Positions 16,012-21,308 are shown, counted from the stretch's first letter. The stretch is 64,000 bases of DNA from an uncultured Haloferula sp. (GCA_965652295.1 CBFGTS010000006.1:160001-224000); one strand, 5' to 3'. Notes: generated from the sequence alone by a model not told the origin. Numbers and translations are program-made.

Positions 16012-16343
16012 AGCGTATCGACTCCCGCCCGCAAAGAATCAGTTAGGACACCCGGAGCGGCGAAACGCGTTCGCCGGAACCCGCCAGAGAAGACCGCCCT
16101 CAGGGACCACTCCCGGCGGACATGTTCCGCCGTTCCTTTCCCCCGCGACCGTCCTCGCACGTCCGCAACCGCTTCTCCTATAACCCACAGCTTCAGACTG
16201 GCGCTCTTTCCACCAAAATCAGGTTCCGACCGACGAACAAAAGGAAGTATTTCATGGCTCCGCTCGAAGAGCCGGAAGCGGGGTCTCAATCTGGCATGAA
16301 GATCAGATCCAAAAGCTCGTCCAGCAAAAGAACCGGTAATTCT

Positions 16344-16381
16344 TTCTGTAAATTTGCAGAATCGGTTGCATCCCATATTAT
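16344..16381 (+). promoter_or_regulatory. sigma70-like promoter with overlapping 18-bp palindrome
   Basis: TTGCAG (16354-59), 16 nt, TATTAT (16376-81); palindrome ttctgtaaa/tttgcagaa at 16344-16361 with 1 mismatch. Confidence 0.5.
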
Positions 16382-16387
16382 TCCCGC

Positions 16388-16416
16388 TACCGTGGGTTCG
16401 AATCCCGCCAGATCCG
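16388..16416 (+). other. tRNA 3'-end-like fragment (T-arm plus acceptor strand), possible att-site remnant
   Basis: taccGTGGG-TTCGAAT-CCCGC-cagatcc-g: 5-bp T stem with canonical loop; no D-arm/anticodon upstream and no CCA. Confidence 0.55.
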
Positions 16417-16418
16417 AA

Positions 16419-16823
16419 ATGAGCACCAGTATTCGCAGAGCCACGCTTCCTCCATCCACCGCCGGAAGCGGTTGGCGCAAGGGTGACCATCCACCAACGA
16501 AGGGCCTCATTCAGACTCTGCGAGAGGATTACGGAGTAACTCAGAACCTGATGGTCCGCCTGTCGGGCTACTCCCCTCGCTCGATCGCAAACTGGGCAAG
16601 TGGGACCAAGGCCACCAAGCCGGCGACAACAAAGTTCATGGAACTGACGAGGCTCTTCAGCGCTCTCGCCGAAATGGCTCAGAGCCCGAAAGACGTGATC
16701 CAGTGGCTTCAGGAGCCCAACGAGGCCTTTGATGGCTCAACACCTTTGCAAGTCATTGAACGGGGCGAGTCGGACCGTATCTGGCGGATGATCTACTTCC
16801 TGCGCTCCGGCGAGCCTCTCTGA
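16419..16823 (+). CDS. Xre/MbcA/ParS-type antitoxin (HTH plus toxin-binding domain)
   Basis: HTH (LREDYGVTQ...SGYSPRSIANWASG); C-terminal WLQEPNEAFDGSTPLQVI..G motif. Confidence 0.8.
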   Translation: MSTSIRRATLPPSTAGSGWRKGDHPPTKGLIQTLREDYGVTQNLMVRLSGYSPRSIANWASGTKATKPATTKFMELTRLFSALAEMAQSPKDVIQWLQEPNEAFDGSTPLQVIERGESDRIWRMIYFLRSGEPL

Positions 16824-16954: not shown

Positions 16955-17302
16955 TCACCCGATCGCCGCCTCCCACTCGGCTTCCTTGAAGCCGGTGAGG
17001 CCGATGCCGTTCCCCACGACGAACGGGCGCTTCACGAGGTTGCCGTGACGGGAAAGCAGGTCGAAGGCCTCGGCCTCGCTCATGGCGGCCAGGCGGTCCT
17101 TCAAATTCAGCTCGCGGTAATCACCTCCAGCGGTGTTGAAGAGGCGCTTCAGGTCTCCCATGGCCTCGCGCACTTGCTTCAGCTCCGCCACCGTCGGCGG
17201 GGTTTCGCGAATGGCAATCGGCTCGTAGGTGAGGCCTCGGGCGTCGAGCCATTTCAGGGCTTTCCGGCAGGTATCGCAGCCGCGGTAGACGTACACTTTC
17301 AT
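16955..17302 (-). CDS. ArsC/Spx (YffB-like) thioredoxin-fold protein
   Basis: CDTCRKA, LFNTAG, NLVKRP, GFKEAEW; ATGA overlap with the folB stop. Confidence 0.9.
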   Translation of the reverse strand: MKVYVYRGCDTCRKALKWLDARGLTYEPIAIRETPPTVAELKQVREAMGDLKRLFNTAGGDYRELNLKDRLAAMSEAEAFDLLSRHGNLVKRPFVVGNGIGLTGFKEAEWEAAIG

Positions 17303-17661
17303 GAAGACGGGCGTTCTCTTTCCAGGCTCACGCCGACCCACTCGGTTTGGGGCAGGATGAATTTCCGGATCCGCACCTTCACCGCGACGGCACCGAAGCT
17401 GTCCAGCACCAGGTCCGCGATTTCATCGGCCAGGGTTTCCACCAGCTTGCGCTCTCCTTCCGCGGCGAGCTTCTCCACGGCCAGCGAGACGGCGTGGTAG
17501 TCGATCGTCCGGCCGACGTCTTCGGCCATGTCGGCGAAATCCGTCGCCGGGCGCATGTCGAGGTCGATCTTCAACATCTGCGAACCGGCCCGTTCTTCAT
17601 CGGGCACGCCGATGCGGGTGAAGATCTCCAACCCGCGGACATGGATCCATGCGGCATTCAT
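17299..17661 (-). CDS. folB: Dihydroneopterin aldolase
   Basis: IGVPDEER..SQ, TIDY, LVETLA, VRIRK motifs; 120 aa. Confidence 0.92.
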   Translation of the reverse strand: MNAAWIHVRGLEIFTRIGVPDEERAGSQMLKIDLDMRPATDFADMAEDVGRTIDYHAVSLAVEKLAAEGERKLVETLADEIADLVLDSFGAVAVKVRIRKFILPQTEWVGVSLERERPSS

Positions 17662-18695
17662 GATTCGGGGCCGCCGAGGACTTCCTCGATCAGGCGGCGG
17701 GTCGGTTGGTTAAGGTCCAGCTCCAGGGCTTCCTCCGGCGTCAGCCAGCGGAATTCCTCGGCTTCGTCGTTGAGCACCACCTCGCCGGAAATACGGCGGG
17801 CGACGTAGTTGAGCAGCAGGAAGTGCTCGGGCCGTTCGAATTCGTCGGAGTCGATGCAGTCCTGCACCATCACGAAGACCGGGGCGGCGACATCCAGGCC
17901 GGTTTCCTCGCGGATCTCGCGCACCAGGGCGGCGGCGGCGCTTTCGCCGCGCTCGATCTTCCCGCCGGGGATCCCCCAGCGATGGCCCCACTTGTGGGTT
18001 TTCACCATCAGCACGCGACCTTCCTCGTCCTCGATCAGGGCACCGACGGTGGCAACCGGCCGCTGTTTCTCGCCCGGGCGCTCCATCAGGCGGCGCAGTC
18101 CGTCGAGGTCCTGCACGGTGAGGTGCGGCCTCGCCAGCGCCAGCGCGCCGGCGTGGGTGTAACCGGTGAGCACCGCCACGGAAGTGAGCTGCGCGTGGTG
18201 CGCGGTCTCCACATCGTGGGTCATGTCACCGACGAAGGCAGTCTGGGAAGGAAGCAGGGCGTGGCGCTCGATGATTTCCAGAATGACCTCGCGTTTGTCG
18301 AGGACGCCGGAGTAGGTGGCTTCGAAATACGGGCCGAGGCCGAATTCCTCAAGCTGCCCGTGGAAGGCGTCGGAGTCCATGCTGGTCAGGACGAAGCAGC
18401 GGATGCCGCGCCGCCGGCACCATTCGAGTTTTTCCCGGGCATGGGGCAGCACGGTGACTTTTTCCAGTGATCCGGAAAAGGCCCTGCGGAAATGCACCTC
18501 GAGCTTGGCGAGCGGCACGGCGGGCAGCATTTCCTCGTAGAACTCGCGGTAGGGCAGCCGGAACCGTTGGCGGAAGGCCTCGCGATCGAGCGGCGGCAGA
18601 CCGTAGACGGCCAGCACCCGGTTGGTGGCATCGAGCACCGGCGGGAGGTCGTCCACCAGCGTGCCGGACCAGTCGAAGATGATATTTTGAAACAT
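17658..18695 (-). CDS. HAD-family hydrolase fused to a Nudix hydrolase
   Basis: N-terminal IIFDWSGTL, LTS, DK, FVGDMTHD; C-terminal Nudix box GGKIERGESAAAALVREIREETGL. Confidence 0.9.
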   Translation of the reverse strand: MFQNIIFDWSGTLVDDLPPVLDATNRVLAVYGLPPLDREAFRQRFRLPYREFYEEMLPAVPLAKLEVHFRRAFSGSLEKVTVLPHAREKLEWCRRRGIRCFVLTSMDSDAFHGQLEEFGLGPYFEATYSGVLDKREVILEIIERHALLPSQTAFVGDMTHDVETAHHAQLTSVAVLTGYTHAGALALARPHLTVQDLDGLRRLMERPGEKQRPVATVGALIEDEEGRVLMVKTHKWGHRWGIPGGKIERGESAAAALVREIREETGLDVAAPVFVMVQDCIDSDEFERPEHFLLLNYVARRISGEVVLNDEAEEFRWLTPEEALELDLNQPTRRLIEEVLGGPES

Positions 18696-19048
18696 CAGCC
18701 GAGAGAGAAACGGATCGACTTCACTTTTCCCTCGCCGAGGGAGGCGCGCAGGTTGGTGAGCAGCCTGCCTTTCATCTGCTCAAGCTGGAAGCGCATCGCG
18801 GGCTGGAGCACCTTGAGGGTGAGGCAGCCGTTTTTCAGCGACTCCGGAGATGCATGGCGGGCGACGAGATCGCCGGCGATTTCGCGCCAGAGCTCGCGGA
18901 GGCGTTCCTCGTCGATGCCCTCGGCGGCACCGACCTGGTTCAGGATCGCCGCCAGGAATTCATCCGGCCGATGGACTCCGGCGTCCGGGTGTTTCGGCTC
19001 CTCGCCGCCCCGCCACTCGGCGAGGATGGCGCGACGGAGCCGGGACAT
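18695..19048 (-). CDS. DUF721/DciA family protein
   Basis: LWREIAGDLVARHASP..LKNGCLTL...LEQMK..LL..L pattern; alternative start at 19066. Confidence 0.8.
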   Translation of the reverse strand: MSRLRRAILAEWRGGEEPKHPDAGVHRPDEFLAAILNQVGAAEGIDEERLRELWREIAGDLVARHASPESLKNGCLTLKVLQPAMRFQLEQMKGRLLTNLRASLGEGKVKSIRFSLG

Positions 19049-19067
19049 CCGGTCACCCCTGGCCATA

Positions 19068-19304
19068 TCACGCGTCGCCGTCGTCGCCGATGGCTTCGAC
19101 CGGGCAGCCCTCCATGGCCTCGCGGCATTGGGATTCCTCCTCGGCGTTCTCCGGTTGCTTGTAAACGTACGAGTAGCCTTCGTCGTCGGAGCGGGTGAAA
19201 TTGTTCGGCGCGGTCTCGCGGCAGAGGTCACAGTCGATGCACTGGGAATCGACGTAGAACTTGCCTCCGATGTTTTCCTCGTTTTTGTCTTCGCGGTCAG
19301 CCAT
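19068..19304 (-). CDS. Ferredoxin (single cluster)
   Basis: CIDCDLC...CPVEAI. Confidence 0.92.
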   Translation of the reverse strand: MADREDKNEENIGGKFYVDSQCIDCDLCRETAPNNFTRSDDEGYSYVYKQPENAEEESQCREAMEGCPVEAIGDDGDA

Positions 19305-19435
19305 GGTGTGTGGGTCCGGGTTCCTTGGCCTGTGAATCGCGCCAGCGGGCCCGGCGTGCAAACCTTTTCCGTGCTAGCGGGGCGTTCGTTTCCACTGGCC
19401 AAGAGAGCGGCCGATTCCTATCACCGGCTCGTCCC

Positions 19436-20455
19436 ATGCCCGACGAGCCCGACCAACCGTCCAAACCCTCCCGCTCGCGGCCGCGTCTGAACGACCTGGC
19501 CGGCGAAACTTTGGAAGACGAGCTTTGGAACCTTGATGACGACGATTCGCAGCCGGCGGACGTCGAGGTGCAACCGCGCAATCCCAAAGCCAGGCCCGCG
19601 CCGCGAGCGGTGAGCCAGCCGGAGGAGGTCGAGGACAAGCCGGGGGAGGGAGCCGAAGCGCCCGCCGGGGAGCCCCCTGCTGAGCAGCCGGAGAAGCACG
19701 AGGCGCTCGCCGCGAAGAAGCCGAAACCGAGCCGCCCCCTCCACGCATCCGAGGACGAACTGGACCTCCCGGAAGAGGAGGCCGATGACACGATTTCCGC
19801 CAAGCCGACCGAGCCCGAAACCGCTCCGGAAACCGGACCCGACGTGGAGGAGTTCGAGAAAAAGCGCCCCGCAGCCGCGGCCGCCACGCCTCCGGTCGCA
19901 GGAGCGAACTCGCAGAAAATCGAGAAGATCGGGCTGATCTCGCTCGCCGTCGTGGTGGTCGGGATCGCCATCTGGGCCACCGCCGGGCTTTTCTCCAGCG
20001 TCAGCACCACCGAGCTGGGCGAGGATTTTCCCGACCTCCCGGCGGAAGGGAAATACGCGACGATCGACGAAGTGGACACCTACTGGCGCAAACCGGTGCG
20101 TGAGGGGGAAGATGCCGATGCCGCCACGGCCGGCGTGCTTTACATCCCGATCGTGTCGGTGACGCTCGACGAGGGCGGGTCCGGCGTGCTGCGCATCCTT
20201 TTCCGCGACGAAAACGGGGAGTTCGTGGGCGATGCGATTTCCCGCCGTTTCGCGAATGGCAGCTTCACCGAAAGCGGTTCGGAAACGGCCGACTTCGCCG
20301 CAACGGACGGCTTTCGCGAGATTTCCGAGTTCAATGGCTACCGCGTCGGCACCGAGCGGTGGACGGCCGAGATCTACGAAGGCCCCTCGGCCGATGCCTC
20401 CGGCAGCGAATTCAAGCAGCTCGTGACCACGCCGCTGTTCCCGAAGACCCGGTGA
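19436..20455 (+). CDS. Hypothetical bitopic membrane protein
   Basis: Acidic/Pro-rich disordered N-terminus, single TM (IGLISLAVVVVGIAIWA), beta-rich C-terminal domain. Confidence 0.7.
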   Translation: MPDEPDQPSKPSRSRPRLNDLAGETLEDELWNLDDDDSQPADVEVQPRNPKARPAPRAVSQPEEVEDKPGEGAEAPAGEPPAEQPEKHEALAAKKPKPSRPLHASEDELDLPEEEADDTISAKPTEPETAPETGPDVEEFEKKRPAAAAATPPVAGANSQKIEKIGLISLAVVVVGIAIWATAGLFSSVSTTELGEDFPDLPAEGKYATIDEVDTYWRKPVREGEDADAATAGVLYIPIVSVTLDEGGSGVLRILFRDENGEFVGDAISRRFANGSFTESGSETADFAATDGFREISEFNGYRVGTERWTAEIYEGPSADASGSEFKQLVTTPLFPKTR

Positions 20456-20474: not shown

Positions 20475-21308
20475 ATGAATGACAGCAACTCCGCCGTTCC
20501 GCCGCTCGTGCCCCGTGAAGGCTGGCACGTCATGCACCTCTTCTACCATATCGATCACTCACAGTGGTCGCTGCTCGACGACGAAGACCGCCGCCACGCC
20601 AAGACCCGCCTGACCGAGTTGGTCCAGGAAATCCGCAGCACACCGGACACCCATCTGCTCATCTTCGCCGTGGCCACGCCGAAGGCCGACCTCGGCTTCA
20701 TGCTGCTAACGCCCGATCTCCAGACGGCGAACGCCTTCGAAAAGCGGCTCACTCTTTCGCTCGGGCCCGACATCCTCACCCCGGCCTACTCCTATCTCTC
20801 CCAAACCGAGCGCTCGGAATACACCACCACTTCCGAGCAGTACGCCGAGGAAACCCTCAAGGGCGAGAAGGGCCTCGCGCCGGACTCCCCGGAATTCGCC
20901 GCGGCGATGAAGGAATTCGAGGAGCGGATGGACCACTACCTGAAGCACCGCCTCTATCCCGTCCTGCCCGATTGGCCGGCGATCTGTTTTTACCCGATGT
21001 CGAAGCGCCGCAGCGGGGCCGACAACTGGTATTCGCTCCCCTTCGAGGACCGCAAGCGCCTGATGGGCGGTCATGCCCGCACCGGCCGAACCTACTCCGG
21101 CCGCATCCTCCAGCTCATCACCGGCTCGACCGGCTTTGACGAGCACGAATGGGGCGTGACCCTGCTCGCCAAGGACACGATCGACATCAAACAGATCGTT
21201 TACGAAATGCGCTTCGACGAAGTCTCCGCCCGCTATGGAGAGTTCGGCGACTTCTACATCGGCATGCAGCTGCCGCTGGCCGAGCTGTTCAAGCGGCTGT
21301 GCCTGTGA
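20475..21308 (+). CDS. hemQ: Coproheme decarboxylase / chlorite dismutase family protein
   Basis: FYPMSKRR..NWY, LMGGH..TGRTY, GSTGFDEHEWGVTL, EMRFDEVSARYGEFG. Confidence 0.85.
   Translation: MNDSNSAVPPLVPREGWHVMHLFYHIDHSQWSLLDDEDRRHAKTRLTELVQEIRSTPDTHLLIFAVATPKADLGFMLLTPDLQTANAFEKRLTLSLGPDILTPAYSYLSQTERSEYTTTSEQYAEETLKGEKGLAPDSPEFAAAMKEFEERMDHYLKHRLYPVLPDWPAICFYPMSKRRSGADNWYSLPFEDRKRLMGGHARTGRTYSGRILQLITGSTGFDEHEWGVTLLAKDTIDIKQIVYEMRFDEVSARYGEFGDFYIGMQLPLAELFKRLCL

What the first reader, a model, noticed from the sequence alone, without database searches (positions are those of the whole stretch)
17299..18695. HAD-Nudix fusion translationally coupled to folB: candidate one-protein route from dihydroneopterin triphosphate to dihydroneopterin
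Seen: a single ORF with a HAD domain (atypical motif I DWSGT) and a canonical Nudix box; its stop overlaps the folB start (ATGA, 17658-61). Known: folate synthesis needs pyrophosphate removal from dihydroneopterin triphosphate (Nudix enzymes FolQ/NudB), then removal of the last phosphate, usually attributed to non-specific phosphatases, before FolB acts. Inference: this fusion supplies both steps, giving a dedicated enzyme for a pathway hole.
Basis: partly seen in the sequence, partly recalled or inferred. Interest (0 to 1): 0.75.

Follow-up and report, generated by a model that had tools for sequence, protein, structure and literature searches.

The report
Phosphatase repeatedly fused to folate aldolase
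An unusual phosphatase that sits beside, or is fused to, the folate enzyme FolB in many Verrucomicrobia (including the gut bacterium Akkermansia) is an untested candidate for a folate-synthesis step usually credited to non-specific phosphatases, though it probably also has another job.

Summary
Observation confirmed: a 345-aa HAD (DWSGT)-Nudix ORF overlaps the genome's only folB (ATGA). The genome has FolE2, FolK, FolP and a QueD-type PTPS, so both dephosphorylation steps are needed. The constant partner of folB is the HAD, not the Nudix. In 193 genomes' loci from three orders plus one other class, folB is fused in 43, adjacent in 92, unlinked in 53 and cut off in 5; Nudix is present in only 84. 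FolB fusions fall in 7 tree clades (Akkermansia included); dciA is never fused. Apart from this gene block, the Nudix family abuts TmpR (pterin/folate reductase) and a HAD-Nudix abuts folE-folB. Against 'dedicated': many folB genomes lack the HAD, folB also stays beside dciA, three near-complete genomes lacking most pterin-branch genes keep the intact gene, the Nudix is closest to NudI, and motif I lacks its second Asp. Verdict: good, untested candidate for dihydroneopterin-phosphate dephosphorylation (about 0.5), probably not exclusive. No paper found in 10 searches. The scan noted the same idea on other DNA (e1-5270387).

The parts
17658..18695 (-). HAD-Nudix fusion gene, 345 aa
   Evidence: ORF; Pfam; AF2 model pLDDT 93.9, two domains; 80 full-length relatives at 63-88% identity
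18081..18695 (-). HAD domain (aa 1-205), helical cap; family-invariant D8 W9 S10 G11 T12, D16, K134, G156 D157 M158 H160 D161
   Evidence: alignment A1; D8, W9, S10, T12, D16, K134, D157, H160, D161 invariant in the five architecture classes tabulated; Foldseek matches to HAD phosphatases, TM 0.8 by target length
18660..18674 (-). motif I DWSGT: nucleophile Asp present, usual second Asp replaced by Ser
   Evidence: sequence; S10 in all 183 loci of the five classes and 62 of 64 distant representatives
17682..18056 (-). Nudix domain (aa 214-338) with family motif T-H-K-W; nearest solved relative NudI/YfaO
17895..17963 (-). Nudix box G245-x5-E251-x7-R259-E260-x2-E263-E264-x-G266-L267
   Evidence: sequence; G245, E251, R259, E260, E263, E264 at least 95% conserved in 79 fusions
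17299..17661 (-). folB, dihydroneopterin aldolase; the only copy found in the genome
   Evidence: E23, Q28, Y55, E75, K100 invariant in all 175 FolB of the fused, adjacent and HAD-less classes, including 43 fused ones
17658..17661 (-). ATGA stop/start overlap between the fusion and folB
   Evidence: overlap in 36 of 74 close loci
18695..19066 (-). dciA (helicase loader, DUF721), upstream gene of the block; TGATG overlap with the fusion
   Evidence: Pfam DciA; adjacent in 80 of 80 close loci but only 38 of 193 wider loci
19068..19304 (-). ferredoxin, first gene of the block
   Evidence: Pfam Fer4_13; 79 of 80 close loci
16955..17302 (-). ArsC/Spx-MgsR family gene overlapping the folB stop; recent addition, not part of the conserved unit
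   Evidence: TIGR01617 above cut-off; present in 2 of 80 close loci

Best explanation
The gene encodes a two-domain phosphohydrolase that serves the pterin branch of folate synthesis without being its only route. FolE2 makes dihydroneopterin triphosphate. The Nudix domain removes pyrophosphate (FolQ-like; inferred). The DWSGT HAD removes the last phosphate through a phospho-Asp8 intermediate, and FolB then cleaves the dihydroneopterin (inferred). With Ser in place of the usual general-acid Asp, invariant D16 or H160 may take that role (speculation). The HAD step is the better-supported half (about 0.6), because the HAD is what stays with or fuses to FolB. The Nudix step is less certain (about 0.5) and is replaceable by other Nudix enzymes, or by the HAD itself, where the domain is lost. 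Shown: domains, motifs, linkage, fusions and pathway inventory. Inferred: substrates, mechanism and physiological role.
For: (1) folB is fused or adjacent in 135 of 193 loci (107 of 165 without the oversampled genus g2). (2) FolB fusions form 7 separate clades among 192 genome tips and 16 once representative proteins are added (FastTree, some joins weak). 23 of the best 150 clusters at 50% identity carry FolB by my profile, 21 of them above Pfam's cut-off. All 28 g2 loci examined are HAD-FolB, and one is identical to a protein that sources name Akkermansia muciniphila ACD05284.1. (3) Control: dciA is adjacent in 38 loci and fused in none; folB kept with dciA lost in 96 loci, the reverse in 1, plus 4 of 80 close loci. 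(4) Fused FolB keeps its invariant residues. (5) Independent contexts among the 10 family loci of the metagenome scan: in L413 a stand-alone Nudix of this family (51% identical) overlaps a TmpR dihydropteridine/dihydrofolate reductase gene above cut-off (368 vs 325); L405 shows the same order with a cut-off SDR start; in L410 a DWSGT HAD-Nudix lies tail-to-tail with folE, with folB next upstream and no dciA. (6) The genome needs both steps: FolE2, FolB, FolK and FolP are present, the PTPS is QueD-type, and NudB is not among the top five families of any of its 7 Nudix domains. [quoted passage not shown]
Against: (1) The co-loss test fails. G436 (99% complete) has an intact HAD-Nudix but no FolE, FolE2, FolB, FolK, FolP or PTPS was found. 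G476 (95%) is the same apart from a FolE2 fragment. G432 (95%, HAD only) keeps only FolK. (2) The HAD is not found in many folB genomes: own order HAD 106 of 151 vs folB 145 of 151; G005's order 43 of 71 vs 70 of 71. Some misses are false: G433 and G440 had the gene beside folB. (3) dciA lies in the folB locus in 15 of 40 and 13 of 20 folB loci without an adjacent HAD, so the block shows strong gene-order inertia. (4) 53 of 193 HAD loci have no folB within about 1 kb (3 of them have it at 1.1-1.3 kb). (5) FolB also accepts another N-terminal partner: a cpYpsA SLOG domain in 6 of 7 f8 loci. Deleting the Nudix between two adjacent genes can also create a fusion mechanically. (6) The Nudix scores 31 vs a cut-off of 103 for NudB, and its nearest solved relatives are NudI. 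(7) In L413 the upstream genes are cmk-like and a CDP-alcohol transferase, which fits a cytidine-nucleotide role too. (8) Distant DWSG HADs, mostly stand-alone, keep the same active site; one look-alike cluster is mainly Woesearchaeota (a lead only). (9) Kin are not independent, and L405 and L413 count as one event.
Confidence: 0.5

Rival explanations
1. Nucleotide house-cleaning: a NudI-like pyrimidine (d)NTP pyrophosphatase joined to a 5'-nucleotidase-type HAD, taking dUTP or damaged dNTPs to nucleosides. It would be co-expressed with dciA and kept beside folB by operon inertia or by a shared thymidylate/folate context.
For: Nearest solved Nudix by profile and by fold is NudI/YfaO; the gene survives loss of the pterin branch in G436, G476 and G432; cmk-like neighbour in L413; dciA in the ancestral block.
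Against: NudI score 37.7 vs cut-off 95; dciA is lost from the locus far more often than folB (96 vs 1); repeated fusion is to FolB, not DciA, and happens after loss of the Nudix; it does not explain the folE-folB and TmpR neighbours.
Confidence: 0.25
2. Generic, promiscuous phosphoglycolate-phosphatase-like HAD with no special tie to folate. The folB link is inherited gene order, and the fusions are neutral by-products of deleting the Nudix or a stop codon.
For: Database names are 'phosphoglycolate phosphatase'; fdx-dciA-folB persists without the HAD; YkuD is a second conserved neighbour in 20 of 55 loci of G153's order; FolB also fuses to cpYpsA.
Against: PGP models are far below cut-off (59.8 vs 225, 54.1 vs 180); family-specific invariant S10, D16, H160 and cap aromatics; HAD-folB linkage survives across three orders where other neighbours change; no DciA fusion; pterin-gene neighbours in unrelated contexts.
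Confidence: 0.15
3. Pterin-linked but a different chemistry: the HAD alone strips all three phosphates in sequence (so the Nudix is dispensable), or the protein clears oxidised, epimerised or excess pterin phosphates (damage control and salvage) rather than carrying the main flux.
For: The Nudix is absent in 109 of 193 loci while folB often stays; none of the 7 Nudix domains of G210 matches the fusion's Nudix closely; a clean-up role could persist in genomes that lost de novo synthesis.
Against: No direct evidence; a capped HAD acting on a triphosphate is less usual (recalled); other Nudix enzymes could fill the gap.
Confidence: 0.1

Closest known systems
E. coli NudB and Lactococcus lactis FolQ (Nudix dihydroneopterin-triphosphate pyrophosphatases)
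   Same: Nudix fold with an intact box; folate-gene clustering, the criterion by which FolQ was found (PMC1971073 passages). PMC5389931 (passages) reports that this activity is ancestral or arose more than once, so low similarity does not exclude it.
   Different: NudB model score 31 vs cut-off 103; different subfamily with a THKW motif; fused to a HAD; FolQ itself was not compared here.
NudI (YfaO) nucleoside triphosphatase
   Same: Best PDB matches by profile (E 2e-15) and the first Nudix hits by Foldseek.
   Different: Score 37.7 vs cut-off 95; about 30% identity; different gene context.
Phosphoglycolate-phosphatase-like HADs (Gph/PGP, COG0546)
   Same: HAD core with helical cap; motifs II-IV intact; TM about 0.8 to 3mc1, 2ah5 and 3sd7.
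   Different: DWSGT instead of DxDGT; far below all PGP cut-offs; tied to FolB.
'Non-specific phosphatase' step of folate synthesis (model reaction DNMPPA)
   Same: This is the reaction proposed for the HAD; it is listed as non-specific in PMC1971073 and PMC4161248 and was added from a database during curation in PMC11406949 (passages).
   Different: Here a specific family with Rosetta-stone fusions to FolB is proposed; no such gene was found in the papers searched.
Phosphonatase and P-type ATPases (HADs without the second motif I Asp; recalled, from no call)
   Same: The position +2 from the nucleophile is not Asp; Trp at +1 as in phosphonatase (recalled).
   Different: No invariant cap lysine for a Schiff base: K134 is the only invariant Lys.

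Membership tests
HAD superfamily phosphatase (helical C1 cap) | Motif I nucleophile Asp; motif II Ser/Thr; motif III Lys; motif IV GDxxxD (motif definitions recalled) | tested here: met
   D8, T104/S105, K134, G156-D157..D161; invariant or S/T across the five classes tabulated
HAD superfamily phosphatase (helical C1 cap) | Second Asp of motif I (DxD, general acid/base; recalled) | tested here: not met
   Ser10 in all 183 loci of the five classes
HAD superfamily phosphatase (helical C1 cap) | Rossmann-like core with cap | tested here: met
   AF2 pLDDT 93.9; Foldseek E 1e-13, TM 0.8 by target length
Phosphoglycolate phosphatase (Gph) | Score above the NCBIfam/TIGR equivalog cut-off | tested here: not met
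   59.8 vs 225; 54.1 vs 180
Nudix hydrolase | Nudix box GX5EX7REXXEEXGU and fold | tested here: met
   G245..L267; strict pattern in 56 of 79 fusions, and G245, E251, R259, E260, E263, E264 at least 95% conserved; Pfam E 6e-24
NudB/FolQ dihydroneopterin-triphosphate pyrophosphatase | Sequence membership (NF006961 cut-off) | tested here: not met
   31.3 vs 103
NudB/FolQ dihydroneopterin-triphosphate pyrophosphatase | Clustering with folate/pterin genes | tested here: met
   folB fused or adjacent in 64 of 84 Nudix-bearing loci (Nax 41, NaD 16, Na? 3, NFx 4); TmpR in L413; folE-folB in L410
NudB/FolQ dihydroneopterin-triphosphate pyrophosphatase | PPi release from dihydroneopterin triphosphate; folate drop in a knockout | not testable with these tools
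   needs enzyme assay and genetics
NudI | NF012016 cut-off | tested here: not met
   37.7 vs 95, although it is the nearest solved relative
Dedicated folate-pathway enzyme | Lost together with the pathway | tested here: not met
   retained intact in G436, G476 and G432, in which most or all of folE/folE2/folB/folK/folP were not found; draft genomes, 95-99% complete
Dedicated folate-pathway enzyme | Present wherever the FolB route is used in the clade | tested here: not met
   HAD 106 of 151 vs folB 145 of 151; 43 of 71 vs 70 of 71; some misses are false
FolB dihydroneopterin aldolase (partner gene) | Domain model and active-site Glu/Tyr/Glu/Lys (roles recalled) | tested here: met
   TIGR00526 70 vs 45; TIGR00525 69.9 vs 72.15, just under; E23, Y55, E75, K100 invariant

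The most novel reading that the evidence does not exclude
The DWSGT HAD family is the first gene family specialised for dihydroneopterin monophosphate dephosphorylation. It uses a non-canonical acid/base arrangement. The THKW Nudix family is a new FolQ type shared with other phyla. The natural HAD-Nudix-FolB triple fusions are single chains that take dihydroneopterin triphosphate to 6-hydroxymethyl-dihydropterin, and Akkermansia muciniphila's only FolB is the two-domain form.
Probability: 0.3. Interest if true: 0.8.

Novelty: new variant of a known kind. Interest (0 to 1): 0.6.

Why it matters
The monophosphate step of folate synthesis is drawn as 'non-specific phosphatase' in the papers read, and FolQ is unassigned in most bacteria (PMC1971073). 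This family gives named, small, soluble candidates for both steps, with natural controls: HAD alone, HAD-Nudix, HAD-FolB and the triple fusion. It would also re-annotate the A. muciniphila protein now called 'phosphoglycolate phosphatase', which carries the only FolB domain found in that genome, and so bears on folate production by a prominent gut commensal. The invariant DWSGT motif is a mechanistic question in its own right.

Tried and rejected
Overlap as proof of a folB link: rejected, since the neighbouring junctions overlap too. A Chlamydia-type RibA/TrpF bypass (PMC4161248 passages), considered when FolE was absent in 5 of 5 genomes: rejected, FolE2 is present in 5 of 5. PTPS-III bypass: rejected, CxxxHGH motif. 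Complex prediction of the HAD with four FolB chains: no verdict, score 0.27 under the mark of 0.32; not used for or against. Rfam scan of the window: 0 matches. Promoter scan: 0 sites; terminator-like sites at chance level. Plasmids: no Nudix-family match, only distant HADs. Viral contigs: no family member; the best Nudix hits have E 3e-13 or weaker and are not near-full-length high-identity matches. Stand-alone Nudix directly beside folB without a HAD: not seen in the 40 + 20 folB loci examined, except L310, which is cut off upstream, and a 12-bit hit 1.6 kb away in L500. Wider sampling of the L413 and L410 lineages was not possible, so the out-of-block evidence rests on 3 loci (2 events). 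The careful IQ-TREE search did not finish; quick and FastTree trees were used, so clade counts are approximate. A neighbour scan of 49 of 77 candidate flanking frames at 27 of the 53 unlinked loci showed no second pathway partner besides YkuD. An alkaline phosphatase family hit is present in G000 and G210 and absent in 3 others: uninformative. Essentiality data for the Akkermansia gene were not found in the search listing. Two papers sought (the Thermus reductase study, and a HAD substrate screen) were not held, so the context of TmpR in print and any screened DWSG HAD are unchecked.

Full report
OBSERVATION. The ORF 18695..17658 (-) encodes 345 aa, with Pfam HAD_2 at aa 5-175 and NUDIX at aa 214-338. 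Motif I is D8-W-S-G-T12 and the Nudix box runs G245-L267. Its TGA overlaps the ATG of folB (17661..17299) as ATGA. The gene sits in a tightly packed run: ferredoxin, dciA, fusion, folB and an ArsC/Spx gene. dciA/fusion and folB/arsC overlap too, so the overlap alone says little. Named relatives at 86-88% identity are Haloferula species. The AF2 model is confident (pLDDT 93.9, pTM 0.73). Foldseek matches each domain separately, to PGP-like HADs and to NudI/YfaO. No curated family cut-off is reached among the 25 of 36 families shown: PGP 59.8 vs 225, NudI 37.7 vs 95, NudB 31.3 vs 103.

PATHWAY INVENTORY. In G000 (98% complete) and four comparison genomes, FolE was found in 0 of 5. FolE2, FolB (one copy each), FolK, a pterin-binding FolP hit and a PTPS were found in 5 of 5; for G000, FolE2, FolK and FolP pass NCBIfam cut-offs. 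The PTPS carries CxxxHGH in all five, which PMC5041015 (section 7) assigns to QueD and not to PTPS-III; the G000 copy passes the QueD cut-off. NudB is not among the top five families of any of G000's 7 Nudix domains (only five families were shown per protein). The organism therefore needs both dephosphorylations before FolB.

LINKAGE. Among 80 close loci, folB follows in 74 (2 of the 6 misses are cut off), dciA precedes in 80 and arsC follows in 2. I then sampled whole genomes. The HAD ortholog (E at most 1e-25) was found in 106 of 151 genomes of the own order, 59 of 61 of G153's order and 43 of 71 of G005's order. In the 301-genome phylum sample, hits fall from E 1e-42 to 1e-20 with nothing between, so many lineages have no ortholog found. 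I fetched 193 loci: 106 of 106, 55 of 59, 31 of 43, plus G004. folB is fused in 43, adjacent in 92, not within about 1 kb in 53 and cut off in 5. The Nudix is present in 84 and absent in 109. dciA is adjacent in 38 and never fused. Without the oversampled genus g2 the folB figures are 15, 92, 53 and 5 of 165. For the 12 unfetched genomes of G005's order, coordinates read by eye put folB within about 1 kb in 11. folB is kept with dciA lost in 96 loci, and the reverse occurs in 1. In G153's order dciA is adjacent in 0 of 55 (2 cut off) while folB is adjacent in 28.

FUSIONS. All 28 g2 loci are HAD-FolB without a Nudix. One is identical to a protein named A. muciniphila ACD05284.1, annotated as HAD hydrolase or phosphoglycolate phosphatase. 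Triple HAD-Nudix-FolB proteins occur in L236, L255, L259 and L266 and in database proteins. On a FastTree of 192 HAD domains, fused forms make 7 separate clades and Nudix-less forms 23 (upper bounds, several joins weak). Among the best 150 clusters at 50% identity there are 17 HAD-FolB, 6 triple and 18 HAD-Nudix by my profiles. Pfam on the 47 longer proteins confirms FolB above cut-off in 21, and shows only one Smr and one LamG as other partners. Fused FolB keeps E23, Q28, Y55, E75 and K100 in 43 of 43, and the HAD keeps D8, S10, D16, K134, D157, H160 and D161 in the five architecture classes tabulated.

OTHER CONTEXTS. The metagenome scan gave 10 family loci among 80 kept. Seven look like the usual gene (5 with folB directly behind, 2 without). 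L413 holds a stand-alone Nudix, 51% identical to the window's domain, whose stop overlaps the start of a TmpR dihydropteridine/dihydrofolate reductase (368 vs cut-off 325). L405 has the same order, with the reductase cut off after its first residues. L410 holds a DWSGT HAD-Nudix tail-to-tail with folE, with folB next upstream and no dciA. That L413 and L405 look like Deinococcota and L410 like a planctomycete is my recall and is not tested; the atlas does list a mainly Deinococcota Nudix cluster, and FolE was absent in the 13 Verrucomicrobiae genomes tested (G279 and G449 among them). These are two independent events, both beside pterin genes.

RESULTS AGAINST. First, folB is almost universal (145 of 151, 56 of 61, 70 of 71) while the HAD is often not found, so the pathway can run without it. 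Some misses are false (G433 and G440). Second, where no HAD is adjacent, dciA still lies in the folB locus in 15 of 40 and 13 of 20 cases, which shows real gene-order inertia. Third, the co-loss test fails. All 5 genomes of G153's order without folB have the HAD. In G436 (99% complete) no FolE, FolE2, FolB, FolK, FolP or PTPS was found, yet its HAD-Nudix is intact. G476 (95%) has only a FolE2 fragment. G432 (95%, HAD only) has only FolK (one search had no positive control). The other two (87-88% complete) keep FolP and probably have assembly gaps. Fourth, FolB is also fused to a cpYpsA SLOG domain in 6 of 7 f8 loci, so FolB tolerates other partners. Fifth, the Nudix is nearest to NudI, and L413's upstream genes are cytidine-nucleotide-related. 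Sixth, three g2 genomes lack both HAD and FolB; all three keep FolK and two keep FolP, which is unexplained.

MECHANISM (inferred). FolE2 makes dihydroneopterin triphosphate. The Nudix domain removes PPi. The HAD attacks the monophosphate with Asp8 (Mg bound by D8, D157 and D161; phosphate held by T104/S105 and K134; roles recalled from HAD chemistry), while the aromatic cap (F41, F45, Y49, F52, Y53) could stack the pterin ring. FolB then cleaves the product. The missing second Asp suggests slower turnover or a substitute acid (D16 or H160), which is speculation. The patchy distribution fits a preferred but redundant enzyme, backed up by promiscuous phosphatases and Nudix enzymes, and probably with a second substrate that keeps it in genomes that no longer make pterins. 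I put HAD action on the monophosphate at about 0.6, a FolQ-like Nudix at about 0.5, the combined non-exclusive model at 0.5, and a strictly dedicated two-step enzyme at 0.3.

LITERATURE. Ten searches of the held library found no description of this family, its FolB fusions or a gene for the monophosphate step. Most subscription papers are not held, and no supplements were read; the SEED table of PMC1971073 may list such fusions. Seen as passages: PMC1971073, PMC4161248, PMC5389931, PMC5270213, PMC10339729 (which calls the phosphatase 'specific' without naming a gene) and PMC11406949. Seen as passages plus section 7: PMC5041015. All others were seen as listings only.

VERDICT. A real and conserved feature. 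It works like FolQ plus the missing phosphatase, but it is not a member of NudB, NudI or Gph by their cut-offs. It is a new variant of known enzyme kinds and a good, directly testable candidate for a pathway hole. Interest 0.6.

Noticed in passing
L111:1456-2367 (-); also L584, L585, L586, L588, L589: In family f8, FolB is fused behind a circularly permuted YpsA SLOG domain (PF12694) in 6 of 7 loci checked, while the HAD lies elsewhere; a second, unexplained FolB partner.
   Followed up: partly
L413:1250-2370; L405:817-1419: A stand-alone THKW Nudix directly precedes a TmpR-type pterin/folate reductase, after cmk-like (L413) and CDP-alcohol transferase genes; a FolQ candidate for that lineage.
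   Followed up: partly
G436, G476, G432 (loci L352, L342, L387): Small genomes (1.7-2.2 Mb) in which most of the pterin branch of folate synthesis was not found; possible folate auxotrophs that keep the HAD(-Nudix).
   Followed up: partly
G102, G255, G394: Three g2 genomes (98-99% complete) lack HAD-FolB; all keep FolK and two keep FolP. Assembly gap or a FolB bypass.
   Followed up: partly
window 18695-19304 and L283-L302, L484-L503: fdx-dciA-folB adjacency persists across two orders even without the HAD; a ferredoxin/helicase-loader/aldolase block with no obvious rationale.
   Followed up: partly
window 19364-20455 (+): 363-aa ORF with an acidic, proline-rich N-terminal part, one likely membrane helix and no Pfam match, upstream of chdC and conserved in 68 of 80 close loci.
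   Followed up: no
window 20475-21308 (+): Coproheme decarboxylase (ChdC/HemQ) above cut-off, divergent from the block.
   Followed up: no
window 16122-16823 (+): Xre/MbcA/ParS-type antitoxin domain gene downstream of the operon; a partner toxin was not looked for.
   Followed up: no
L204, L205, L209, L218, L221: In genus g158 the HAD, separated from folB, is followed by a second, different HAD (DWDGV).
   Followed up: no
loci of G153's order, e.g. L342:999-1487: A YkuD L,D-transpeptidase gene is in the HAD locus in 20 of 55 cases, with or without folB.
   Followed up: partly
G000:C9 and G000:C13 (L161, L171): Two hits above the dihydropteroate-synthase cut-off in the window's genome.
   Followed up: no
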